A stretch of 64,000 nucleotides of DNA from Alphaproteobacteria bacterium (GTDB lineage Bacteria; Pseudomonadota; Alphaproteobacteria; UBA9219; RGZA01): NCBI GenBank assembly GCA_021732145.1, contig JAKFVN010000017.1, positions 91,661 through 155,660 of the forward strand, given 5' to 3'. A program made the translations under genes and the position numbers. Position 1 is the first letter of the stretch, and each line of letters starts with the position of its first letter. The notes beneath the pieces were generated by a model, which was given only the letters and a program-made list of their open reading frames with translations, ran no database searches and was not told the DNA's origin. Shown piece by piece: positions 1-36,242 of the stretch.

Positions 1-1286
1 AAGAAACCGATGCGGCATCCAAGGAACGCCTGGCGAAGCTGGATGCCGAGCTTGGTACGCTGGAACAGCAATCCTCCGAATTAACCTCGCGCTGGAAAGC
101 GGAAAAAGACAAGCTGAAATCATCGCAGCGCATTAAAGAAGAAATTGAACGCGCGAAGAATGAATTGGAACAAGCGCAGCGCAAGGGCGATTACAACCGC
201 GCTGGCGAGTTGACGTATAGCGTGTTGCCCGATTTGGAGCGCCGCCTGAAAACAGCCGAGCATACCGAAGACAATGCGATGCTGAAGGAAGAAGTGCATG
301 AAGAAAACATCGCCGAAGTCGTAAGCAAGTGGACAGGCATTCCCGTTGATAAAATGATGACGGGGGAGCGCGAAAAACTCCTGAAAATGGAAGATAAGCT
401 GAAACTGCGCGTGATTGGTCAGGATGAAGCAGTGGCTGCTGTTTCAAGCGCCGTGCGCCGTGCGCGTGCTGGGTTGCAAGACCCGCAGCGCCCCATTGGT
501 TCCTTCCTATTCCTTGGGCCAACAGGCGTTGGCAAGACCGAGCTTTGCAAAGCCTTGGCTGAATTCATGTTCGATGATGATACCGCCATGGTGCGCATCG
601 ATATGTCGGAATATATGGAAAAGCATGCCGTCGCGCGGTTGATTGGCGCACCGCCAGGCTATGTCGGGTATGAAGAAGGCGGTGTGCTTACCGAAGCCGT
701 GCGTCGCAGACCGTATCAAGTGCTGCTATTCGATGAGGTTGAAAAAGCCCATGCGGATGTCTTCAATATTTTATTGCAAGTGCTTGATGATGGCCGCCTG
801 ACCGATGGCCAAGGCCGCACGGTTGATTTCAGAAATACCATTATCATCCTCACCAGTAATCTTGGTTCTGAATTCCTCGCTGTGCATGAAAGCGAAGAAC
901 ATGAAGGCATTTCTGGCAAGGTACGCGATGCGGTGATGAACGCTGTGCGCAAGCATTTCCGCCCTGAATTTCTCAACCGCCTTGATGAAATCCTGCTGTT
1001 CCGTCGCCTTACGCGCGATAACATGGCGGGTATCGTTCACGTGCAATTGCAACGCCTGCACAAGCTTCTGGCTGACCGTAACATCACGCTGCAACTGGAT
1101 GACAGGGCCAAAACATGGCTTGCCGATACAGGCTATGACAGCGTCTATGGTGCAAGGCCCCTTAAACGTGTTATCCAGCGCAGCCTGCAAGATCCGCTGG
1201 CGCAACTGTTATTGCAGGGTCAAATCAGGGACGGGCAGCAATTAAAAGTCACAGCCGATGACAATGGCCTTGTAATTCAAGGTTAA
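1..1286 (+). CDS. clpB: ClpB disaggregase, C-terminal part (gene starts upstream of window)
   Basis: Frame continues from window edge. Middle-domain coiled-coil, then second AAA+ module with Walker [10 protein letters not shown], sensor motifs and the C-terminal small domain typical of ClpB/Hsp104. Confidence 0.9.
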
Positions 1287-1293
1287 TTGGCGT

Positions 1294-1322
1294 TTGACGG
1301 GTTTTGGTAAGTTTCTATTAGC
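1294..1322 (+). promoter_or_regulatory. Possible sigma70-like promoter for the pilin-like operon (TTGACG, 16-17 nt spacer, TATTAG)
   Basis: Near-consensus -35 hexamer TTGACG at 1294-1299 followed by a weak -10 about 17 nt downstream, in the 83-bp gap after clpB. Confidence 0.2.
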
Positions 1323-1369
1323 AATTGGTCATTTAGATTCGTCTGTCACCTTTCAAAAGGCAGAACCCA

Positions 1370-2014
1370 ATGCTGCAATCCCGTTCCAACGTTTCCCAGC
1401 GCCCATCATCCGAAGCTGGCATCGCGATTGGCGTAATCTTATTTGTCGTCGCCTTGCTTGCCGTGATTGGCGTTTCCCTGTCGGCTGGAAGTAATACGGT
1501 GGGCAGCACGATTGTGTCTGATACCGTGCGCAACAATATCAAAAGCCAGGCCAACCTTATCCGCAGCAAAATTCTGGAATGCAATCAATACTCCTTCGAC
1601 CGCGGTGAGCTTGGCGATAAATATCCCTATGCTGGCCCGAACGGTGTCAGCTTTGGCGTAACTCCGCAACTGGTCGAAGATTTGCATTGCATGGCGTTTG
1701 TTGCGGAAGGCACCGCGCTGCCTGATACACGCACCAGTTTGTGGTCTGGCGCCCATGCCGCAACGCTTCCTGCGCCAAGCCCCGGTTTTGATAAATGGGT
1801 TTATGTGAATGCTGGCCCATCAGGCGGCCGGTGCATTCGCGTGCAACCCAATCCCGGCAATGCGAATGATGTGGGCATTAAAACCGGCCTTGCGCAAGTT
1901 CAAGGTGCGTTTTCCAGCCAGGAAGTTGTCTATGACTCCAACAGTTCATCACAGCGCTTCATTCTTTGGATAACCGCGCCATCGGGAACGGTTAGCGCCG
2001 ATTGCTCTAGCTAA
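1370..2014 (+). CDS. Pilin-like / class-III-signal-peptide-like secreted Cys-rich protein, paralogue A (214 aa)
   Basis: N-terminus ...SSEAG-IAIGVILFVVALLAVIGVSL (Gly followed by about 20 hydrophobic residues). C-terminal Cys pairs. Motifs GGRCIRVQP and SSQRFILWITAP...DCSS are shared with the downstream paralogue. Operonic with an A24 peptidase gene. Confidence 0.55.
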   Translation: MLQSRSNVSQRPSSEAGIAIGVILFVVALLAVIGVSLSAGSNTVGSTIVSDTVRNNIKSQANLIRSKILECNQYSFDRGELGDKYPYAGPNGVSFGVTPQLVEDLHCMAFVAEGTALPDTRTSLWSGAHAATLPAPSPGFDKWVYVNAGPSGGRCIRVQPNPGNANDVGIKTGLAQVQGAFSSQEVVYDSNSSSQRFILWITAPSGTVSADCSS

Positions 2015-2025
2015 GGTAAGGTTTT

Positions 2026-2679
2026 ATGGAAAAGCGCTTATCACATGACTCCGGCATTGCAATTGGAATGGTCTTATTCGGCCTTGCGCTGCTTGCGGTT
2101 GTATCCGTTGCAATGGGAGTAGGCGGCAATAATAATCTTAGCTCCGTTATTTCCATTGACCGCTCAACGGCGGATTTAAAATCCCAAGGATTGCTGATTG
2201 CGACTAAAATCCGTGATTGCTTCAGCAATGGCATTGATAACAAAAAACTGGATTGCTCGAATAATACCTATATCCCAGGCACGGGCTGGTCACGCCCGGG
2301 ATGCAGCCCGATTGACCCAGCCGCCTTTTATCCAGCAAGCTCAGGTTCCGGCACGCCGGTTGAAAACTTGAACTGCCCATCGTTTGGCGCGGGCATTCAG
2401 AATTTATGGACAGGGCAAGTGCCGGCCTTATTGCCGCCGCCATCATCCGGGTTTGATATCTGGTATTATGTGAATGCGGGTGATGGCGGCGGGCGTTGCA
2501 TCCGGACGCAGCCACTTGCATCAACGGTTGATGATTCTTCCATGCGCGCTGGTTTGCTGGAAGCATCAGCATCCTTTTCAGCGAATGAAGTGAGCTATGT
2601 GCCAACCAGCACATCGCAGCGCTTTATTCTGTGGATTACCAAGCCAGCCGTCATAGCCAGTCCGGATTGCGCCCCTTAA
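2026..2679 (+). CDS. Pilin-like / class-III-signal-peptide-like secreted Cys-rich protein, paralogue B (217 aa)
   Basis: N-terminus ...SHDSG-IAIGMVLFGLALLAVVSV. Shares GGRCIRTQP and SSQRFILWITKP...PDCAP with paralogue A. AAGG RBS upstream. Stop overlaps the peptidase start (TAATG). Confidence 0.55.
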   Translation: MEKRLSHDSGIAIGMVLFGLALLAVVSVAMGVGGNNNLSSVISIDRSTADLKSQGLLIATKIRDCFSNGIDNKKLDCSNNTYIPGTGWSRPGCSPIDPAAFYPASSGSGTPVENLNCPSFGAGIQNLWTGQVPALLPPPSSGFDIWYYVNAGDGGGRCIRTQPLASTVDDSSMRAGLLEASASFSANEVSYVPTSTSQRFILWITKPAVIASPDCAP

Positions 2680-3221
2680 TGGAACAGCTAACTTCATCAG
2701 AAATGATGTCGACCATCTTGAACACGATGCTTTCCGGGCCATTCGCACCGTGGCTGCCGCTGGGCATCATGGTGATTTTGTTTGCCACGGCAGCATGGGA
2801 TGCGCGCACAGGCATTGTTCCCAATATCCCGCTGCTAATTGGCGCGATTGCAATTATCGCCGGACGCTTTCTTGCCAAGGGTTATAGCGATGCGATTATC
2901 AATCTTGCCTTGGGGCTTGGGCTATGGGCGCTGTTATGGGCGTTTAATGAGTTCTGGTATCGCTTTTTCAAAAAAGATGCCATCGGCATGGGCGATGCGA
3001 AATGGACAGCATTGGCCGCTGTCACCTTTGGCGCACTGCCCGCAGTGCTGGCATGGTTCATCGGTTCATGGCTTGCGATACTCTGGATCGGGCTTTGCTA
3101 TCTGTTCAGAAAACGCATCAGCAAGGTTTACTTCGCGCCGTTTTTGTTTTTTGGCCTGAACATCGGCATGCTGTTTACCAAAAAAATCATCGAGCTGCCT
3201 TATCCGTATAATATATTCTAA
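2679..3221 (+). CDS. A24-family aspartic prepilin peptidase, TadV/CpaA type (no N-methyltransferase domain)
   Basis: Polytopic membrane protein with AAWDARTGIVPN (first catalytic Asp in the D..R.IPN context) and GMGDAKW (GxGD second catalytic Asp). The ATG at 2679 overlaps the upstream stop. The ORF-track start at 2631 is an alternative. Confidence 0.7.
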   Translation: MEQLTSSEMMSTILNTMLSGPFAPWLPLGIMVILFATAAWDARTGIVPNIPLLIGAIAIIAGRFLAKGYSDAIINLALGLGLWALLWAFNEFWYRFFKKDAIGMGDAKWTALAAVTFGALPAVLAWFIGSWLAILWIGLCYLFRKRISKVYFAPFLFFGLNIGMLFTKKIIELPYPYNIF

Positions 3222-4153
3222 ACAGCAGCTTCGGTTGCCTTGCCAATTCCCGATGGAATGCCGCGCAGCGGCTTCATGTACAGCAGCAAGGCAGCTGCAA
3301 CATAAATGGACGAGAACGTTCCAACCACGATACCCCATGTGATGGCAACCGAGAATCCGTGCAGCGCCGGGCCGCCAAACAGCACCAGCGGCACAATGGC
3401 CAGCAAGGTGGTCAGCGATGTCATCAAGGTACGCGACAGGGTTTGGTTCACCGCATCATTGATGATGGTTTTCAGCGTTGCGTTCTTGTGCTTGCGCAGG
3501 TTTTCACGGATACGGTCGAATACCACCACGGTATCGTTCAGCGAATAACCGGCCAGCGTCAGCAACGCAGCAACGGCCGTTAAATCGAATTCAAGGCCCA
3601 GCGCGGCATAAAGCCCAACAGTCACGAATACGTCATGGAAGGTTGCGATAACCGCAGCAACACCAAACTGCCATTCAAAGCGGACTGCCACATATACGCC
3701 GATAAACAGCATGGCAAGGCCAAGTGCAAGGATGGCGGCATGGCGTAATTCTTCACCCACGCGCGGGCCAACCACTTCCACGCGGCGGTATTCATAATTC
3801 GTGCCCATGGTTTCACGCACTTTGGCAATGGCTTTGTTTTGCGCTTCTTCGCCGCCATCCTGGCGTTCCATGCGGATAAGCACATCTTTATTGGTGCCAA
3901 ACTCCTGCAACTCCACGCCGCCCAGCTCAAGGCTATCCAGTGTCTTGCGTAAGCCTGCAACATCCACGGCTTCGTTGGAGCGCGCTTCAATCAAAATACC
4001 GCCTTTGAAATCGGTGCCGAAGTTGAGACCCGGAACAAACAGCAACACAATAGCGCCAACCACCATCAATGCGGTGATGACAATTGCAATGTGGCGCTTT
4101 GATACAAAGTCGATATTGGTGTTTTCAGGGAAAAGGCGGATAGGGAATTTCAT
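3218..4153 (-). CDS. secF: Protein translocase subunit SecF
   Basis: 311 aa, 6 TM segments, typical SecF N-terminus and sequence. No secD is adjacent. Confidence 0.9.
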   Translation of the reverse strand: MKFPIRLFPENTNIDFVSKRHIAIVITALMVVGAIVLLFVPGLNFGTDFKGGILIEARSNEAVDVAGLRKTLDSLELGGVELQEFGTNKDVLIRMERQDGGEEAQNKAIAKVRETMGTNYEYRRVEVVGPRVGEELRHAAILALGLAMLFIGVYVAVRFEWQFGVAAVIATFHDVFVTVGLYAALGLEFDLTAVAALLTLAGYSLNDTVVVFDRIRENLRKHKNATLKTIINDAVNQTLSRTLMTSLTTLLAIVPLVLFGGPALHGFSVAITWGIVVGTFSSIYVAAALLLYMKPLRGIPSGIGKATEAAV

Positions 4154-4253
4154 GGGTTTATCGCTTAAATGATGTGAAATAAGTGATAAATGGGATAACG
4201 GCTTTTGAGTTTTCCATCAACCCGTATATTGCGGCGGTTGAATCAGTGCGGTT

Positions 4254-5765
4254 TTAAGCCCATTTCCGGCTGGTTTTTAAATCACGGCGGATTTCCACAA
4301 TGCGGTGATTATTGGTATCTGCGACTAAAAGGCGATTTTCGCCATCCGCCCAAATGCCCGCAGGTTCGTTAAACGGCAGGCACACATCATCGGTACAGTT
4401 CCATTCGTGATTATCCACATCACTCACGCTGCGGTCGTTCATGTCAATCAAGCGCAACGCATCATTATAACTATCCGCCACCAGAATACGGTCATCATCC
4501 AGCAAGCAAATACCCAGCGGGTGCTGCATGCTGGCATCCTGTATCTGGCCATTGGCGTGGCCGAATTCGAATAATCCCTTGCCGATGATGCTGCGGATTT
4601 TAATCTCGTGCATGTCGATGAAGCGGATGGCGGATGTTTCGCTATCGGTGAAAAACAATTTGCTCATGTCACTGTTCAGCACAAGGCCGGATGGTTGCGC
4701 CATATCTGCAACCAATGGTTCGCCGTCGCGTATGCCTTCGATACCGCTGCCGGCAACAACGCGCACAACGCCCTCCACCAAATCAATCGCGCCAATCTGG
4801 TGCGTTCCGGCATTGCTGAAAAACAGAATGTTGTTTTTGATTTCCAAATCCCAGGGGGAGGCAAGGGCGCGCCCAAACGCCTTCTCAAATTTGTTAATCA
4901 GCATCATGCCGCGCATGCCAGTGCCCGATAGCGTCGTTACGTCGCCCGTATGGCGGTCAATGCGGCGTATGGCGTGATTGCCTGTATCTGCGACATAAAT
5001 GGAATCATTATTGGCAATCAGCCCTTGCGGGGAATTGAACGTGGCATGGGTTTTATCGCCATCATCGCAGCCCGCGCGCCCCGCGCCATAACGTTCGATT
5101 TCATTGGCATTATCATCAAACAGCACAATCTGGTGGTGTCCGCTATCGGCGACCATCCATTGCTTTATCTGGCCGGGCATTTTTTTGATTTTTCCGGGGA
5201 AACGCAGCGTGCTTGGCTTCACCTCCGGTTTTGTCCATGAAAAGGGCGATGGTCTTAAAACGGCCTTCTCATCATACGTATCCAGCGCATCGCGCACCGT
5301 GTTCAAAAGGTGCAATGGTTCAGGCTCACCCGTATTCACGTAAGCGATGTAACCCAGCGGGTCGATGAACACCATAGTGGGCCATGCATGCACATTATAA
5401 TGCCCCCATAAAATATGCTTGGGGTCATGGATAACCGGATGGCGAATGTCATAACGCGCAATCGCCTGTTTGACTTTTTCAATGTCTTTTTCGGCTGAGA
5501 ATTTAGGAGAGTGAACACCAATCACCATCACTTCATGGCCGAAGGCGGCTTCGATTTTTTGCAAGGTTGGAAGGATATGGATGCAGTTAATGCAGCAGAA
5601 CGTCCAGAAATCCAGTATCACCAGTTTGCCACGTAAATCGGATAGCGAAAACGGCTTATCGGTATTGAGCCATGTCAGGCCCCCTTTTTCAAATTCCGGG
5701 CGGTTGATTTCTGGCGCATGGAGGGGGGATTCGGATGGTTCCATGAGAGGTAAGATAAACAACAA
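4254..5765 (-). CDS. Thioredoxin-like domain fused to an NHL-repeat beta-propeller (NHLRC2-like architecture)
   Basis: N-terminal redoxin fold with LVILDFWTFCCINC. C-terminal repeated ...ADTGNHAIRRID / VADTNNHRIVEI / VADSYNDALRLID NHL repeats. The true start is probably MEPSESP near 5744. Confidence 0.75.
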   Translation of the reverse strand: MLFILPLMEPSESPLHAPEINRPEFEKGGLTWLNTDKPFSLSDLRGKLVILDFWTFCCINCIHILPTLQKIEAAFGHEVMVIGVHSPKFSAEKDIEKVKQAIARYDIRHPVIHDPKHILWGHYNVHAWPTMVFIDPLGYIAYVNTGEPEPLHLLNTVRDALDTYDEKAVLRPSPFSWTKPEVKPSTLRFPGKIKKMPGQIKQWMVADSGHHQIVLFDDNANEIERYGAGRAGCDDGDKTHATFNSPQGLIANNDSIYVADTGNHAIRRIDRHTGDVTTLSGTGMRGMMLINKFEKAFGRALASPWDLEIKNNILFFSNAGTHQIGAIDLVEGVVRVVAGSGIEGIRDGEPLVADMAQPSGLVLNSDMSKLFFTDSETSAIRFIDMHEIKIRSIIGKGLFEFGHANGQIQDASMQHPLGICLLDDDRILVADSYNDALRLIDMNDRSVSDVDNHEWNCTDDVCLPFNEPAGIWADGENRLLVADTNNHRIVEIRRDLKTSRKWA

Positions 5766-5880
5766 ACCTCATAAAACAAGCTTGTTTTTGGCAGGTTTTT
5801 GGCTCTTTACCAATCATCAAGCTTGTTTTGCAAAACTATCCTGCCCTTTGTACTTTTGTGGCACGAATTATTGGGCAGCT

Positions 5881-6861
5881 ATGGAAAATATTCTCAACGA
5901 CCCCCGTATTAAGCGGGTCGTCACCATCACCAACCGCAGCGTTGATTTAAAGCATTTGCTTTCGGCAGAGCGCGCCGCGCGCGGCAGTTTTTATGCGACC
6001 CGTGTCGGCTTTGTCGCGATTAACCCGAAGGGGCACCGCATTGCACGTTCGCATAACGGGTTCCCTATCGGCATCACGGAAACCCGTGAACGGTGGAGCA
6101 AAGGCCAAAAAGATTTCTATCATCTGCATGCGGAATGTGCCGGCGTTTTCCATGCGCTGCGCGATGGGTATGCATGCAACAAGGCAACGGCTTATATCAC
6201 GCACCCGCCATGCCCCGGCTGTATGCGTGTGTTGATTGCAACCGGATTTAAGCGCGTAGTGTTCAGCGAGCAGGCATTATTGGAACGCCAGGATTGGCGC
6301 GATGATATGCTGCGCAGTTTTGATTTGGCGCATGCTCATAAATTGGAACTCAGCATCTACCGCGATAATGAACGTAGCATGAAAAATGCTGATATTACCC
6401 GCACCGAATTGCAGCTGAAGAAAATCTATGATGAATTGGTGCCGCAGGCGCGCTGGTCATCGGGTGATGTCAGTGAAATTTCTAGAGCCACCAAGCCCGA
6501 AAGCGGTGATTGGGTTGAACAGCCCGTTGTTAAGGCGTTATTGCACTGTGCGAAGCAAGGCATTGCGCTGGGCGGCAAGCGCGTATTGATGGATGCGTCG
6601 CCGGAATGCCGTGCGGCAACTGCGATGATACAGGCCGGCATAACCGAGATTATTATTTGCGATAATAAAAAAACCGGCGATGCGCGCTGGGCCGTGCCGC
6701 TGGAACTGGAGCGCGCCAAGGACATGCTGCTGAACGATGCAAAAATAAAAATGCATGTTGTTAACGCGCAAGAAGCGGAGCGTTTGGTGAATACCAGCGC
6801 GGTCGGCGTGTTGAACGCAGGCAGCCTTGCATTAAAATCCAGAAAATTTATGCAGCTTTAA
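5881..6861 (+). CDS. dCMP/cytidine deaminase-fold protein with a second degenerate deaminase-like domain
   Basis: Zinc motifs HAECAG ... PCPGCMRVL in the N-domain. The C-domain repeats the fold as SPECRAATAMIQAGITEIII without the HAE motif. Start at M101 of the track ORF (5881). The track ORF from 5581 extends across the divergent intergenic region. Confidence 0.7.
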   Translation: MENILNDPRIKRVVTITNRSVDLKHLLSAERAARGSFYATRVGFVAINPKGHRIARSHNGFPIGITETRERWSKGQKDFYHLHAECAGVFHALRDGYACNKATAYITHPPCPGCMRVLIATGFKRVVFSEQALLERQDWRDDMLRSFDLAHAHKLELSIYRDNERSMKNADITRTELQLKKIYDELVPQARWSSGDVSEISRATKPESGDWVEQPVVKALLHCAKQGIALGGKRVLMDASPECRAATAMIQAGITEIIICDNKKTGDARWAVPLELERAKDMLLNDAKIKMHVVNAQEAERLVNTSAVGVLNAGSLALKSRKFMQL

Positions 6862-10393: not shown

Positions 10394-10847
10394 TGCACGG
10401 CGTCCCGCGCGCGAATGGCTTTAAGTCCTGATATCTACCTTGCCACCACGGTCTGGTGTCACAGGTGAACTCGTGTCGATAATTGGCGGTTTTGGCGGCG
10501 GCGCAGCTTGCGGCGGCGGCAAAACGGTTTTAGGTGGCGTGACAATCTTCGATGATGTTGCTGAAACGCTCACGGCAAATCCCCTTTAAAATAAATTTCA
10601 ATATGCCAGCACTATAGCACAGGCGTGCTTAGGGATTTTTTAAGAAATCATCAAATGTGACGTATTCACCATGTTGTTTTGCTGCTGGTTCAACCAAACC
10701 GCTAACGATGCGTAAAGATTGGCTAAACAGTTGATTAAGGCCCGATGCAAAGACGCTGCTTTTAACCACCTTTTTGATTTTATTAAACGTTTTTGGGCTA
10801 ATCTGTTGGCCTTCTTGTGTTTATTCCGTTTTTTCGAGTGGTCTTCC

Positions 10848-13499
10848 TTGTCGCTTTATCTTGGCATTGATCTTGGCACTTCCAACAGTGTCGTCACAGG
10901 ATTGCTGGATTCTAAAATCCGCATTTTCCGTCCGGCTGACGGCGGTGAAACGCTGCCTTCAATGATTTACATTGATAAGCGTGGCCACCGTTTATTTGGC
11001 CGTCGCGCGCATGACCAGGCATTTATCGCGCCGGAAAATGTTGCGGCTGGTTTTAAGCGCCTGATGGGTACCAACACCAAGATTGAAGTTCCCGGCGCAG
11101 AGGTTTCGCTCACGCCTGAAGAATGCAGCGCGGAAATCATCAAGCAATTGATTGGCCAGGTATTCACCGAAATCGGCCAGCAGGAAATTGATGGCGTTGT
11201 CATCACCATTCCTGCCGCCTTCAACCAGATGCAGTCAGAAGCGACATTGCGCGCTGCCGAAATGGCAGGTATTAAACGCGTAGCGCTATTGCAGGAACCC
11301 GTTGCGGCTGCGATGGCTGCAATGGCCGGTACGCCGCGTGAAGGGCATTTTCTGGTTTATGATTTGGGCGGCGGCACGTTTGATTTGGCGCTCGCGCATA
11401 GCAAAGACGGCGAAGTAAAAATCGTATCGCATCAGGGCATCAACATGCTGGGCGGCCGCGATTTTGACCGCATGATTGTGCATGAAGTGGTACGCCCTTG
11501 GCTCAAGGAAACCTATAATCTTCCCGAGGATTTTTTCCGCAACAAGGAATACTCCCGTTTAATGCGCATTGCATCGCTGGCGGCTGAACGCGCCAAGATT
11601 GATTTAAGCCTGGTTGAGGAAACGCAAGTATTTGCCAGCGAAGAAGAAGTGCGCATGAAAGATTTGGCAGGCACTGATATTTTTATCGATGCAACACTGA
11701 CTCGCACGGTATTCGAAGGGCTGATTAAAACACCCGTGAACAACACCATCGATTTAATCCGCAGTGTTCTGGAAGAAGCCGAGCTTAAAACCGAAGATTT
11801 GGATTCGATTGTGTTTATCGGCGGCCCATCGCGCATTCCGCTCATTAAGGAAATGGTAAGCGAAGCATTGAAAGTGCCGGTGGATTTGAAGATTGACCCG
11901 ATGACCGCCGTGGCGATTGGCGCGGCATATCACGCCGAAAGCTTAACATGGGAAAGTGTTGCATCTGTCGCACCTGCAAAAGACAGTGAAGCAAAACCAG
12001 CCGAAGAAAAATTGCAAGCGAAGCCAAAACCCAAAGAAGCGCGGGTGGAAGTTGATAAAAAGCAAACCGGCCTTGATTTGGCATTTGATTATTCGGCGCG
12101 TACCGGCGCGGATAAAGCCAGTGTGCGCGTGGTGCTGCGCGCTAAGCCAGCCAAGGCGCGCTGGATGCGCGCATTCCGAAATGATGACAACGAAGAATGG
12201 CAATCGCCGCTTTATAAATTGGAAGATGGCTTAACGCTTACACTGCCATTGCCGCATATCGGCAAAAATGATTTTACGATTTCAGTGTTCGATGAACAGC
12301 GCGACCCGCTGCCGCATGGCGACCGCAAGATTACCGTAACGCGCACGGCTGCATCGGCCGCGCAAATTCCTGCCGCGCAAACCATTGCAGTGAAGTTGAT
12401 TGACCGCAAGGCTGGCGAGAATGTTCTCGACCCGCTTATTACCAAGGGCACGCAATTGCCCGCCGAAGGCAAGGCCATTTTCCGCGCCGCGCGCGATTTG
12501 AAATCTGGCTCGCAAAACGCTTTGGCGCTTGAACTATTCCAGTTGGAATATCCGGAAAAGGTTGAATTGAACCTTTGCATCGGCACTTTCTTTATTACCG
12601 GCAATGATTTGCCGGAAGGCTATATCATCCGCAAAGGTGAGCCTGTGACCTTTAACTGGCAAATGGATGAAAGCGGCATTTTGCGCTCCACCGTGCGCTT
12701 GCCTGCGCATAAAGACGATGGCAAAGAACATGAAGAAGGCGAGGCATTCGATGATGAAGAAGACCCCATCGAGCTTATCACGCCGCGTTTCTATTCGCCG
12801 CAATCGGCCGCGATTGCCTATGATGCAAAACACGGAACACCTTTTTCCAAGGCAATGTTGAAGCAGGCCGAAGAAGATTGGGGCGATTTGGCCGCGGCGA
12901 TTGGCCCGGCTGCAGGCGCGGATATTCAATTATTGAAAGATAGAATTGATGATCAAAAAGAAATCCTCAAAGATAGCCTTGATGATAGCGAAGTTATTCG
13001 CCAGGTATCTGAAGAAGCGCGTTTTTTAAGGCAGGATATCGCCCGCACCAGCCGCAAGCATCTTATTCCGTTATTGCAGCGCCGCTTGGGCCGCTTGCAG
13101 GCCATCTTTAACCGTGTGGCGCGTGCGTTTGCGAATGCCGAAGAACTGGAACGCTTTGAAAAGACAATTGCCGATATTAACGGCGTGCTGGATGAAAAGC
13201 GCGAAGCGGAATTGAATTACGCCGAACGCCGCCTTGAAGATTTAACCGATGATTTCTTTGATTTGTCATGGCGCGACCGCAATTTTGTGCGCTTATGGTT
13301 CAATCGCCTGAAGACCGAAAGCTATCTGTTCCCCGATTTGGAAGAGTTTCAATCGATGGTTGATGCCGGCGCGGTGCATGACCGCGAAAATGATGACGAA
13401 GCCTTGCGTGACCTTGTAAAGCGCATGTTTGATATTCGCGTGCGCCTTTCGGCCAGCGATACGGTTAGCGAACCTGCCACATTAATGCGCGGCGAATAA
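10848..13499 (+). CDS. Atypical Hsp70-family ATPase (about 880 aa) with divergent extended C-terminus
   Basis: Canonical NBD motifs: GIDLGTSNS, DLGGGTFD, IGGPSRIPL and GAAYHA. A divergent SBD-beta-like segment follows (LITKGTQLP ... GILRSTVRLP). Then an acidic stretch and about 300 aa of predicted helix. Start assigned to the in-frame TTG at 10848 (MSLYLGIDLG). The track ORF begins at ATG 10719 and would add an implausible 43-aa leader. Confidence 0.75.
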   Translation: MSLYLGIDLGTSNSVVTGLLDSKIRIFRPADGGETLPSMIYIDKRGHRLFGRRAHDQAFIAPENVAAGFKRLMGTNTKIEVPGAEVSLTPEECSAEIIKQLIGQVFTEIGQQEIDGVVITIPAAFNQMQSEATLRAAEMAGIKRVALLQEPVAAAMAAMAGTPREGHFLVYDLGGGTFDLALAHSKDGEVKIVSHQGINMLGGRDFDRMIVHEVVRPWLKETYNLPEDFFRNKEYSRLMRIASLAAERAKIDLSLVEETQVFASEEEVRMKDLAGTDIFIDATLTRTVFEGLIKTPVNNTIDLIRSVLEEAELKTEDLDSIVFIGGPSRIPLIKEMVSEALKVPVDLKIDPMTAVAIGAAYHAESLTWESVASVAPAKDSEAKPAEEKLQAKPKPKEARVEVDKKQTGLDLAFDYSARTGADKASVRVVLRAKPAKARWMRAFRNDDNEEWQSPLYKLEDGLTLTLPLPHIGKNDFTISVFDEQRDPLPHGDRKITVTRTAASAAQIPAAQTIAVKLIDRKAGENVLDPLITKGTQLPAEGKAIFRAARDLKSGSQNALALELFQLEYPEKVELNLCIGTFFITGNDLPEGYIIRKGEPVTFNWQMDESGILRSTVRLPAHKDDGKEHEEGEAFDDEEDPIELITPRFYSPQSAAIAYDAKHGTPFSKAMLKQAEEDWGDLAAAIGPAAGADIQLLKDRIDDQKEILKDSLDDSEVIRQVSEEARFLRQDIARTSRKHLIPLLQRRLGRLQAIFNRVARAFANAEELERFEKTIADINGVLDEKREAELNYAERRLEDLTDDFFDLSWRDRNFVRLWFNRLKTESYLFPDLEEFQSMVDAGAVHDRENDDEALRDLVKRMFDIRVRLSASDTVSEPATLMRGE

Positions 13500-35006: not shown

Positions 35007-36242
35007 ATGGCCAATACCCTTGATAAAAAACATCTAACCCCTATTTCGCAGGCTGAACTTGATGTCGCAATCAAGAAGCACGCCATGTATGCAAATGCGA
35101 AAGTGGGCGGGGCGCGTGCAATCCTTAGCTATAAGGATTTATCGGGATTGGTATTGCGCGCGGTTGATTTATCCAGCGCGGATTTCAGCGGCTCCATGTT
35201 CTATGATGCCGATATGCGCAATTGCAAAATGGAAGGCAGTGTTTTCTTTTGCGCCAATTTACAAAAAGCACATTTGAATGATGCGCGCCTTGCGCGCATT
35301 GATTTGCGCGGCGCAAATATTCAAGGCGTCGATTTTTCCGGCGCGGATCTAACGCAGGCCGATATGCGCGAAGGTTCGATGGCCACCAAAGACCGCCGTG
35401 GCAATATCAGCGTGAAGCCGCTTGCAGGCGCAGCGCCAATGAAGGCCGATGGCAAGAAAACCGATGTTCCTGTGTACACGGATGATGTGGATGCGCGCGA
35501 AGCCCTGTTCATTGGCACGCGTATGCACCGCGCCATGCTGCGCGGCGCACGTATGCAGGGCGCGATTTTGGAAAATGCCGATTTAACCGGCGCGCAGATG
35601 GATGGCGCAAGCCTTCGTGAAGCCGTGCTGCTCAACACCACATTAGACGGTATTGAATTATCTCAGATTGATTTTGCCCATGCGCTGCGCGATGAAATTC
35701 AAGGGTTGGGTATTGAAGATACGTTTGAGCCCTTGCCGCAATTGTTCACGAAACATGCGGTCTGGGTTGAAAGCGGCGGGGTAATTGGTACGCGCCTTGA
35801 TTTAACGCGTTATGATTTGCGCGCGCATAAAAGCCAGTATATCGATTTCAAAGAACAGAATTTAATCATGATGAAAGCGCGTCAGGCGATTTTCTATCAT
35901 GTACGCTTCAGCAGCGCGCAAATTCAGGCATGCGATTTCCGCAATTGCGATTTCCGCCTTGCCCTGTTTGATAAGGCCGATTTGCGCGGCAGCGATTTTT
36001 CAGGTTCCAACATGATGCGCGCGCGCTTCCAGCTTGCGCTGCTTTATCCACTGAAACTTCCTGATGGCCGTATTGTTCCAACCAACATGAGCAATTGTAA
36101 TCTGCGCTATGCCGATTTTACCGGCGCGGATTTAAAGAGCGTGAATTTCACCGGCGCAGACCTTTCCTATGCCGATATGCGCGGCACGAATCTGGCGGGC
36201 GCGGATATCACTGGCGCAATCACTGAAAACACGCTGTTTTAA
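35007..36242 (+). CDS. Pentapeptide-repeat protein
   Basis: Long runs of A(D/N)L(S/T)x-type pentapeptides (ADLTGAQM, ANLAGADITGA, and so on). Confidence 0.75.
   Translation: MANTLDKKHLTPISQAELDVAIKKHAMYANAKVGGARAILSYKDLSGLVLRAVDLSSADFSGSMFYDADMRNCKMEGSVFFCANLQKAHLNDARLARIDLRGANIQGVDFSGADLTQADMREGSMATKDRRGNISVKPLAGAAPMKADGKKTDVPVYTDDVDAREALFIGTRMHRAMLRGARMQGAILENADLTGAQMDGASLREAVLLNTTLDGIELSQIDFAHALRDEIQGLGIEDTFEPLPQLFTKHAVWVESGGVIGTRLDLTRYDLRAHKSQYIDFKEQNLIMMKARQAIFYHVRFSSAQIQACDFRNCDFRLALFDKADLRGSDFSGSNMMRARFQLALLYPLKLPDGRIVPTNMSNCNLRYADFTGADLKSVNFTGADLSYADMRGTNLAGADITGAITENTLF

What the first reader, a model, noticed from the sequence alone, without database searches (positions are those of the whole stretch)
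1370..3221. Two tandem paralogous pilin-like Cys-rich proteins translationally coupled to a stand-alone A24 prepilin peptidase, with no pilus assembly genes nearby
Seen in sequence: ORFs at 1370-2014 and 2026-2679 (214 and 217 aa) share an almost identical N-terminus, ...S(E/D)(A/S)G-IAIG(V/M)(I/V)LF.(V/L)ALLAV... That is a Gly followed by about 20 hydrophobic residues. They also share Cys-rich C-terminal regions with the blocks GGRCIR(V/T)QP and SSQRFILWIT.P......DC. The third ORF starts with a TAATG overlap. It is a polytopic membrane protein carrying AAWDARTGIVPN and GMGDAKW. These correspond to the two catalytic-Asp motifs of family A24 aspartic prepilin peptidases of the short TadV/CpaA type, with no N-methyltransferase domain. 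Established knowledge: A24 peptidases cleave class III signal peptides right after the Gly that precedes the hydrophobic stretch. Their genes normally sit in tad/cpa or pil loci with secretin, ATPase and platform genes. Inference: the two paralogues are the dedicated substrates of this peptidase. They lack the Glu at +5 and are about 3x larger than Flp pilins. They do not resemble TadE/TadF or GFTLIE pilins, and the flanks are housekeeping genes (clpB, secF). This looks like a minimal, possibly new peptidase-processed surface/secreted protein module: minor-pilin or adhesin-like proteins delivered to an assembly machine encoded elsewhere.
Basis: partly seen in the sequence, partly recalled or inferred. 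Interest (0 to 1): 0.65.

Follow-up and report, generated by a model that had tools for sequence, protein, structure and literature searches.

The report
Detached pilin-like genes with dedicated peptidase
Two tandem genes encode proteins with a type IV pilin shape but no recognisable pilin sequence motif, followed by their own small prepilin-type peptidase; together they look like the tail end of a previously undescribed pilus-like gene cluster that, in this uncultured alphaproteobacterial lineage, no longer sits next to its assembly machine.

Summary

A family member lies directly upstream of this peptidase type in 26 of 33 independent metagenome loci. Distant members are the pilin set of complete but divergent type IV filament clusters (secretin, ATPase, platform, A24 peptidase). 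One genome has that machine directly upstream of the same pilin/small-gene/secF junction seen here.

The window therefore most likely holds a prepilin/peptidase pair detached from its machine. No machine gene lies in the 64-kb window or in 433 kb of related flanks. Whether one exists elsewhere in the genome could not be tested. All three genes are under purifying selection (dN/dS 0.06-0.09).

The parts
1370..2014 (+). ORF1, pilin-like paralogue A (214 aa). Predicted class III (prepilin-type) signal: 17-residue leader MLQSRSNVSQRPSSEAG, putative cleavage after G17, mature N-terminus IAIGVILFVVALLAV... It has 4 Cys. This is the short form that occurs alone in single-copy genomes.
   Evidence: ORF and translation. 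40% identity to ORF2, E=5e-45. Family alignments and invariant Gly. HMM hit A3 E=1e-45. dN/dS 0.09 against the L006 orthologue.
2026..2679 (+). ORF2, pilin-like paralogue B (217 aa). Leader MEKRLSHDSG, putative cleavage after G10, mature N-terminus IAIGMVLFGLALLAV... It has 6 Cys. Two of them (C77, C93) lie in an insertion of about 30 residues that is absent from ORF1-type proteins.
2679..3221 (+). ORF3, short A24 (GxGD) aspartyl prepilin-type peptidase (180 aa). Catalytic D41 lies in WDARTGIVPN and D106 in GMGDAKWT. Its start overlaps the ORF2 stop (TAATG). Its stop overlaps the stop of convergent secF by 4 nt.
3218..4153 (-). secF, a conserved convergent neighbour. It is context rather than part of the module, but it marks the junction shared with the machine-linked locus.
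   Evidence: Translation. Convergent secF follows the peptidase in 18 of 30 informative metagenome loci, in L001, L006-L009, L011 and L063, and in the machine-linked GCA_041445565.1 locus.
1..1286 (+). 3' part of clpB, the upstream neighbour. It occupies the position where the machine genes lie in the GCA_041445565.1 locus.
   Evidence: Translation. clpB is syntenic in L001, L007 and L009. Contrast.

Best explanation
ORF1 and ORF2 are precursors of type IV pilin-like proteins from a previously unannotated family. ORF3 is their dedicated prepilin-type (A24, GxGD) leader peptidase.

Proposed mechanism. The precursors insert into the inner membrane through their ~24-residue hydrophobic segment. 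ORF3 cuts on the cytoplasmic face directly after the invariant Gly (G17 in ORF1, G10 in ORF2) and removes a short leader. The mature proteins begin with IAIG and are not N-methylated, because the peptidase has no methyltransferase domain. They keep a long N-terminal helix and a periplasmic head. Four Cys are invariant in the close family and could form two disulfides, with a possible third in ORF2 from its extra Cys pair; pairing was not checked in the model. The proteins are then substrates for polymerisation or extraction by a type IV filament machine (ATPase, platform, secretin).

That machine is not in the window. Comparative genomics indicates the module is the detached distal end of a divergent type IV filament operon with MSH-like gene order. 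The order is secretin, a choice-of-anchor-D/ASH-like protein, a GspE/PilB-like ATPase, a platform, two bitopic proteins, 3-4 pilins and an A24 peptidase.

Shown: the genes, paralogy, peptidase family and fold, pilin-like fold, invariant Gly, absence of Glu+5, conserved pairing, purifying selection, and the family's link to complete machines in other genomes.

Inferred: the cleavage site, the substrate relationship, disulfide pairing, and the existence of a machine elsewhere in this genome.
For: Peptidase:
- Pfam A24 above threshold.
- Both catalytic Asp and the GxGD motif are invariant.

Substrates:
- Confident model with the pilin 'lollipop' architecture.
- Gly at -1 in 217/217 members. +1 is I, F, S or N. 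The uncharged run has a median of 24 residues.
- The G..+22 segment is the most conserved part (62% against 52% overall and 30% for the leader), as in pilins and unlike cleaved Sec signals.
- Weak hits of distant members to prepilin, GspG/H/J/K, PilA and ComGE NCBIfam models.

Pairing:
- TAATG overlap.
- The same order recurs in L001, L006-L011 and in 26 of 33 informative metagenome loci.

Machine link:
- L012, L014/L015 and L016 have the full cluster, with two strong family members in tandem and one to three weaker matches beside them.
- GCA_041445565.1 has the order machine, pilins, 159-aa gene, convergent secF.
- The window-type peptidase profile is closer to the machine-linked peptidase (hhalign E=1e-5) than to a Tad CpaA (E=0.004).

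Functionality: dN/dS 0.06-0.09 for all three genes, similar to secF.
Against: - Glu at +5, the hallmark of bacterial type IV pilins needed for assembly, is absent in all 217 members. No N_methyl, TadE or Flp profile matches.
- No machine gene lies in 64 kb of window or within 10 kb of any of the 45 related peptidase loci, 433 kb in total. A machine in this genome is therefore assumed, not seen.
- 7 of 33 loci lack an adjacent pilin-like gene. Six of these have a soluble coiled-coil protein there instead.
- In CP064970.1 the pilin pair has no peptidase within 10 kb, so the pairing is not obligatory.
- The 159-aa gene in the 'missing link' locus could not be read because no DNA was returned.
- Cleavage has not been demonstrated.
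Confidence: 0.68

Rival explanations
1. Machine-less module. The lineage has lost the filament machine. The peptidase-processed proteins then work as N-terminally anchored periplasmic or cell-envelope proteins without forming a filament, comparable to the non-pilus class III-signal substrates of archaeal PibD.
For: No machine gene lies within 64 kb of window or 433 kb of flanks in 45 related loci. All members lack Glu+5. The module is nevertheless under strong purifying selection. It keeps a fixed housekeeping context, clpB and secF.
Against: The N-terminal hydrophobic segment is the most conserved region, which is expected for subunit-subunit or machine contacts and not for a simple anchor. 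Distant members that also lack Glu+5 sit inside complete machines, so missing Glu+5 does not imply no assembly. Only a small fraction of each genome was visible.
Confidence: 0.17
2. The proteins are pseudopilins of a type II secretion-like apparatus (a periplasmic piston for protein export) and not subunits of an external pilus.
For: The ATPase of the related clusters scores best against GspE (253 bits, against PilB 228) and the platform against GspF. No retraction ATPase is seen in those clusters. GspG/H/J/K models are among the weak hits of distant members.
Against: All scores are far below the curated cut-offs. The secretin is nearest MshL/PilN pilus secretins. The best structural matches are type IVb pilins and PilA1, not GspG. 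The proteins, at about 200 aa, are larger than major pseudopilins.
Confidence: 0.1
3. The paralogues are ordinary Sec-exported periplasmic proteins or signal-anchored membrane proteins (SPase I site near ...SAG|S), and the neighbouring A24 peptidase is functionally unrelated.
For: The N-terminus has the generic layout of basic, then hydrophobic, then small residues. A small-residue motif (A-M/L-S-A-G) follows the hydrophobic run. Seven of 33 peptidase loci lack an adjacent family member.
Against: The Gly before the hydrophobic run is invariant in 217/217 sequences. The hydrophobic run has a median of 24 residues, which is long for a Sec h-region. It is the best-conserved segment of the protein. 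The model continues it as one long helix into the head, as in pilins. Pilin fold matches. Translational coupling and recurrent pairing with the peptidase. Membership of pilin gene sets in complete machines.
Confidence: 0.04
4. The proteins are accessory components of the flagellum.
For: In CP064970.1 and a related contig, two family members directly follow flgI-flgJ-x-fliK-flgD and overlap the flgD stop.
Against: This context appears in one lineage only. Everywhere else the context is an A24 peptidase and/or a type IV filament machine. The fold matches pilins, not flagellar proteins.
Confidence: 0.01

Closest known systems
Type IVb pilins (ETEC CofA/CFA-III, V. cholerae TcpA) and C. difficile PilA1
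   Different: No detectable sequence similarity. Glu+5 is absent in all 217 family members. The leader is short. There is a helix break or linker at about residues 33-44. The partner peptidase is a 180-aa enzyme with no extra domain.
MSHA-type pilus locus (mshL-M-N-E-G-F followed by pilin genes)
   Same: From my own knowledge of the msh operon, its gene order resembles the related complete clusters: secretin, accessory protein, ATPase, platform, small proteins, then several pilin genes. The secretin's best curated hit is MshL.
   Different: The MshL hit scores 110 bits against a cut-off of 250. The ATPase and platform fall under no curated equivalog. The accessory protein is a choice-of-anchor-D/ASH-like protein. 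The clusters carry their own small A24 peptidase, and the pilins lack the GFTLIE motif.
TadV/CpaA with Flp/TadE/TadF (Tad pili)
   Same: A small A24 peptidase with no N-methyltransferase domain that cleaves after Gly. Several pilin-like substrates are encoded next to it.
   Different: The substrates do not match Flp or TadE profiles and are about three times larger than Flp. The peptidase profile is only marginally similar to a genuine CpaA (hhalign E=0.004). It coexists with a separate CpaA in L028. The related machines have one PilC/GspF-size platform and a ~615-aa ATPase, not TadB/TadC and CpaF.
FlaK/PibD and archaeal class III signal-peptide substrates
   Different: This is a bacterial (alphaproteobacterial) lineage. 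Sequence identity to FlaK is only 8%. Related clusters contain a secretin and a bacterial GspE/PilB-like ATPase.

Membership tests
Peptidase family A24 (GxGD prepilin/preflagellin peptidases) - ORF3 | Match to the family profile (Pfam PF01478) above the curated threshold | tested here: met
   E=5e-7, 30.5 bits against a gathering score of 26.5. Most homologues also carry PF01478. No NCBIfam model matched.
Peptidase family A24 (GxGD prepilin/preflagellin peptidases) - ORF3 | Two catalytic Asp, the second within a GxGD motif | tested here: met
   D41 (WDARTGIVPN) and D106 (GMGDAKWT). D41, G103, G105, D106 and K108 are invariant in 25 homologues down to 30% identity.
Peptidase family A24 (GxGD prepilin/preflagellin peptidases) - ORF3 | Polytopic helical GxGD-protease fold | tested here: met
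Peptidase family A24 (GxGD prepilin/preflagellin peptidases) - ORF3 | Cleavage of class III signal peptides after Gly | not testable with these tools
   Requires co-expression and N-terminal sequencing.
Bifunctional PilD-type (A24A) peptidase/N-methyltransferase | Additional N-terminal methyltransferase domain (protein of about 250-290 aa) | tested here: not met
   ORF3 is 180 aa, and the single A24 domain spans nearly all of it.
Type IV pilin / pilin-like protein - ORF1, ORF2 | Class III signal: short leader ending in Gly, followed by about 20 hydrophobic residues | tested here: met
   Gly at -1 in 217/217 members, uncharged run median 24 residues, leader median 13 residues. G10 is invariant in the 48-sequence divergent alignment.
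Type IV pilin / pilin-like protein - ORF1, ORF2 | Glu at +5 and the N_methyl / GFTLIE-type motif (PF07963, TIGR02532) | tested here: not met
   Glu+5 in 0/217 members; +5 is P, Y, V, M or A. No N_methyl hit in Pfam or NCBIfam at E<=1. Only weak hits (E 0.01-0.08) of a few distant members to pilin or pseudopilin models.
Type IV pilin / pilin-like protein - ORF1, ORF2 | Long N-terminal alpha-1 helix packed on a beta-sheet head (pilin fold) | tested here: met
Type IV pilin / pilin-like protein - ORF1, ORF2 | Genetic linkage to a prepilin peptidase | tested here: met
   TAATG coupling. Pairing in L001, L006-L011 and in 26 of 33 metagenome loci.
Type IV pilin / pilin-like protein - ORF1, ORF2 | Linkage to an assembly ATPase, platform protein and secretin | tested here: inconclusive
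   Absent from the 64-kb window and from all 45 related peptidase loci. Present for distant family members (L012, L014, L016) and in GCA_041445565.1. The rest of this genome could not be searched.
Type IV pilin / pilin-like protein - ORF1, ORF2 | Assembly into a filament | not testable with these tools
   Needs microscopy, shearing or proteomics.
Tad/Flp system (Flp, TadE/TadF, TadV/CpaA) | Substrates match Flp or TadE profiles; peptidase orthologous to CpaA/TadV | tested here: not met
   No Flp or TadE Pfam hit at E<=1. hhalign of the peptidase family against a bona fide CpaA gives E=0.004, probability 8%. A separate CpaA coexists in L028.
MSHA-type, T2SS, T4aP or T4bP machine (for the related complete clusters) | Secretin, ATPase and platform reach the curated equivalog cut-offs | tested here: not met
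   MshL 110 against 250 bits, PilN 73 against 288, GspE 253 against 630, PilB 228 against 676, GspF 27 against 424.

The most novel reading that the evidence does not exclude
A widespread group of uncultured Alphaproteobacteria keeps a prepilin peptidase and one or two Glu5-less pilin-like substrates under strong selection, beside secF, after losing the cognate filament machine. The processed proteins would then act without a dedicated type IV filament apparatus, as envelope-anchored proteins, or be handed to an unrelated machine such as Tad. This would be a bacterial counterpart of the archaeal non-pilus class III substrates. More broadly, the family and its related clusters would define an undescribed branch of the type IV filament superfamily whose pilins assemble without the canonical Glu5.
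Probability: 0.2. Interest if true: 0.75.

Novelty: new variant of a known kind. Interest (0 to 1): 0.58.

Why it matters
Type IV filaments are among the most widespread prokaryotic surface machines, and bacterial pilins are usually recognised by the G|FxxxE signature. This work turns up a family of at least 452 cluster representatives (at 50% identity) that standard annotation misses. The family has the pilin fold and an invariant cleavage-site Gly, but never Glu+5, and both the pilin-like protein and the peptidase are labelled 'hypothetical' in NCBI records.

The family belongs to a divergent machine type that fits none of the curated classes. In many uncultured Alphaproteobacteria only the pilin and peptidase pair remains together, next to secF.

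If the machine sits elsewhere, this is a clear case of operon fragmentation, and a handle for annotating these systems. If the machine is gone, it would show prepilin-type processing reused for non-filament proteins in bacteria. Either way, the pair offers a compact two-gene system for testing how an A24 peptidase recognises Glu5-less substrates.

Tried and rejected
- Pfam and NCBIfam scans of ORF1 and ORF2 found nothing meaningful; the only hit was a spurious Sex_peptide match at E=0.15.
- PDB sequence searches with ORF3 and with the family profile found nothing.
- The afdb50 fold library was unavailable.
- Promoter and terminator scans of 1100-4400 were no better than shuffled sequence.
- Rfam found nothing in the window.
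- Two literature searches found no description of such a system.
- The genome-contig scan returned only four loci, all from unnamed MAGs.
- The window's own 774-kb contig was not returned with DNA. Neither copy of the key 'missing link' contig was returned with DNA. I therefore could not confirm that its 159-aa gene is the peptidase, nor obtain machine sequences close to this lineage.
- I considered spending the metagenome scan on machine proteins. The available ones (L012, L014, L016) are 83-91% identical to each other, too narrow to reach this lineage, so I rejected that.
- I suspected the lineage might be Micavibrio-like and predatory, but found no evidence and dropped the idea.
- The Tad interpretation was rejected.
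- The flagellar role was rejected because it rests on a single-lineage context.
Full report
**1. Observation**

The three ORFs exist as described. ORF1 is 1370-2014 (214 aa) and ORF2 is 2026-2679 (217 aa). They are 40% identical (BLASTP E=5e-45) and share the quoted N-terminal and C-terminal blocks.

The third ORF is listed from a GTG at 2631. The ATG at 2679 overlaps the ORF2 stop as TAATG. That start gives a 180-aa product 100% identical over its full length to database protein P0056. It contains WDARTGIVPN and GMGDAKWT.

Upstream is the 3' part of clpB. Downstream is secF on the opposite strand, and its stop overlaps the ORF3 stop. GC content is unremarkable across the region.

**2. The peptidase**

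- ORF3 matches Pfam Peptidase_A24 just above the gathering score (30.5 against 26.5 bits, E=5e-7). No NCBIfam model matches, and NCBI labels a near-identical protein (same 90%-identity cluster) 'hypothetical'.
- In an alignment of 25 homologues down to 30% identity, D41, G103, G105, D106 and K108 are invariant.
- An AlphaFold2 model built on that alignment is confident (pLDDT 88.5, pTM 0.83, seven helices).

ORF3 is therefore a short, single-domain GxGD aspartyl peptidase of family A24 with no methyltransferase domain.

**3. The paralogues**

Neither protein matches Pfam or NCBIfam, or any PDB sequence. Homologues are all unnamed proteins from uncultured Alphaproteobacteria. A profile search of 1.84 billion cluster representatives finds 452 relatives at E<=0.001 and 158 at E<=1e-10.

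Conservation within the family:
- In the close family, four Cys are invariant, along with the blocks GGRCIR.QP and QRFILWIT.P.
- In a 48-sequence alignment with only 17% mean column identity, six positions are invariant: the Gly before the hydrophobic segment (G10 of ORF2), Q54, C65, P103, C117 and W146.
- Over 217 non-redundant members, the residue at -1 is Gly in all 217. +1 is I (51%), F (22%), S or N. +5 is P, Y, V, M or A and never Glu. The uncharged run after the Gly has a median of 24 residues.
- The segment from the Gly to +22 is the most conserved part of the protein (62% mean pairwise identity, against 52% overall and 30% for the leader). Pilin alpha-1N helices behave this way; cleaved Sec signal peptides and simple anchors do not.

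Structure:
- The AlphaFold2 model of ORF2 is confident (pLDDT 88.6, pTM 0.77). It shows a helix from residue 13 to 77 with a small break at 34-35, followed by a compact head.
- Foldseek against the PDB is not significant; the top hit is a pilin at E=0.17.
- Several distant family members weakly touch prepilin, GspG/H/J/K, PilA and ComGE NCBIfam models.

The proteins are thus type IV pilin-like in architecture and in signal-peptide layout. They fail the canonical sequence hallmarks (Glu+5, N_methyl motif).

**4. Pairing with the peptidase**

The order clpB, one or two pilin-like genes, peptidase, convergent secF is conserved in L001 (single copy), L006, L007, L008 and L009. Peptidases only about 40% identical to ORF3 are again preceded by a family member in L010 and L011.

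A metagenome scan with the peptidase alignment returned 45 further loci at 34-49% identity.
- Of 33 loci with more than 700 nt upstream, 26 have a family member directly upstream on the same strand. There are 24 single copies, one double and one triple.
- 18 of 30 have a convergent secF downstream.
- Of the seven exceptions, six carry a conserved soluble coiled-coil protein of about 165 aa upstream of the peptidase instead. L062 and L063 show the same.

All three window genes are under strong purifying selection against the L006 orthologues: dN/dS is 0.09, 0.06 and 0.09, and 0.06 for secF.

**5. Link to an assembly machine**

The window contains no assembly ATPase, platform or secretin. Pfam on the ten unassigned large ORFs gives an HSP70-like protein, a histidine kinase, an MCP, a pentapeptide-repeat protein, RlmN and similar. 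The remaining ORFs were judged housekeeping by eye only. HMM searches of all ORFs find only the two family members and one peptidase.

None of the 45 related loci has a secretin, platform or accessory-protein hit (20 loci are >=10 kb; 433 kb in total).

Distant family members, however, lie in complete clusters in L012, L014/L015 and L016. The layout is:
- an A24 peptidase on the opposite strand, sometimes followed by a response regulator
- a secretin
- a ~500-aa choice-of-anchor-D/ASH-like protein
- a ~615-aa T2SSE ATPase
- a ~405-aa T2SSF-like platform
- ~350-aa and ~180-aa bitopic proteins
- three or four small genes of about 200-230 aa: two score strongly against the family profile, and one (L012, L014) to three (L016) score weakly (E 1e-6 to 1e-8). 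N-termini read for L012 are KG|NALFLILIAV, RG|SVLFYVFLAM and NG|SVILYIFIAI.

The machine proteins fall well below every curated equivalog cut-off: MshL 110 against 250 bits, GspE 253 against 630, PilB 228 against 676, GspF 27 against 424. This is a divergent type IV filament system with an MSH-like gene order.

A bridging arrangement occurs in GCA_041445565.1: lytB, secretin, ASH-like protein, T2SSE, T2SSF, 348 aa, 169 aa, then 231-aa, 187-aa (P0055, 34% identical to ORF2) and 196-aa genes, then a 159-aa gene whose end overlaps convergent secF. That is the same distal junction as in the window, with the machine sitting where the window has clpB. No DNA was returned for this contig, so calling the 159-aa gene the peptidase is inferred from its size and position.

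The ORF3-type peptidase profile is closer to the machine-linked peptidase of L014 (hhalign E=1e-5, 28% identity over 114 columns) than to a genuine Tad CpaA (E=0.004). It also coexists with a complete Tad locus carrying its own CpaA in L028, L029 and L061. It is therefore a separate A24 lineage and not TadV/CpaA.

**6. Interpretation**

The best-supported reading has three parts.
- ORF1 and ORF2 are prepilin-like precursors cleaved after G17 and G10 by ORF3.
- The module is the detached distal part of a divergent type IV filament operon.
- The mature proteins, starting IAIG, are handed to a machine encoded elsewhere.

The substrate/peptidase relationship rests on fold, the invariant Gly, translational coupling and recurrent synteny. 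It is well supported but not demonstrated. The existence of a machine in this genome is not shown. An ordinary Sec-signal explanation and a flagellar role are unlikely.

**7. Novelty**

The components are of known kinds: an A24 peptidase and type IV pilin-like proteins. The following are not described in the libraries or papers searched:
- the pilin family itself, which has no Pfam or NCBIfam model and universally lacks Glu+5
- the machine type it derives from
- the widespread detached two- or three-gene arrangement beside secF

I rate it a new variant of a known kind, of moderate to good interest.

Noticed in passing
L025 9478-9975; L026 9490-9972; L028/L029 9392-9892; L056 9369-9935; L061 9395-9904; L062 9517-9996; L063 1539-2048: In one sub-branch of the ORF3-type peptidase family, the gene directly upstream is not a pilin-like gene. 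It is a conserved soluble coiled-coil protein of about 160-170 aa (N-terminus MNQ..EQL.KVLAL.DS.H.GEA...). Pfam gives only a weak TPR_MLP1_2 hit. Its relation to the peptidase is unknown.
   Followed up: partly
L003 9980-11218 (CP064970.1) and L004 6845-8083: Two family members sit directly after flgI-flgJ-x-fliK-flgD, and the first overlaps the flgD stop. No A24 peptidase lies within 10 kb. This is the only lineage with such a flagellar context.
   Followed up: partly
L028 599-8028 (also L029, L061): A canonical Tad/Cpa locus (CpaA, RcpC/CpaB, secretin, CpaD, TadZ-like, CpaF, TadB) lies 2-9 kb upstream of the ORF3-type peptidase on the opposite strand. These genomes therefore carry two distinct short A24 peptidases.
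   Followed up: yes
L012 2179-3714; L014 2735-4210; L016 2773-4287: The related complete clusters encode a ~500-aa protein with a choice-of-anchor D / ASH-like Ig domain between the secretin and the ATPase. They also encode two unannotated bitopic proteins (~350 and ~180 aa). None of these matches known pilus assembly families.
   Followed up: partly
window 2026-2679 (ORF2 residues ~68-97): ORF2-type paralogues carry an insertion of about 30 residues with two extra Cys (C77, C93) that ORF1-type proteins lack. Genomes with a single copy have the short ORF1-type form, which suggests ORF2 is the derived duplicate.
   Followed up: partly
window 4254-5765 (-): A 503-aa thioredoxin/AhpC-like protein with NHL repeats follows secF. 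It is syntenic in L001, L007 and L009. An unusually long (double-length) dCMP/cytidine-deaminase-like ORF lies next to it at 5581-6861.
   Followed up: no
window 10719-13499 (+): A 926-aa protein whose first ~410 residues match HSP70/MreB-type actin-fold ATPases. It has a ~500-residue C-terminal extension with no Pfam match.
   Followed up: no
window 24812-26293 (-) and 35007-36242 (+): A 493-aa protein with only a weak cold-shock-domain match near its C-terminus, and a 411-aa protein made almost entirely of pentapeptide repeats.
   Followed up: no
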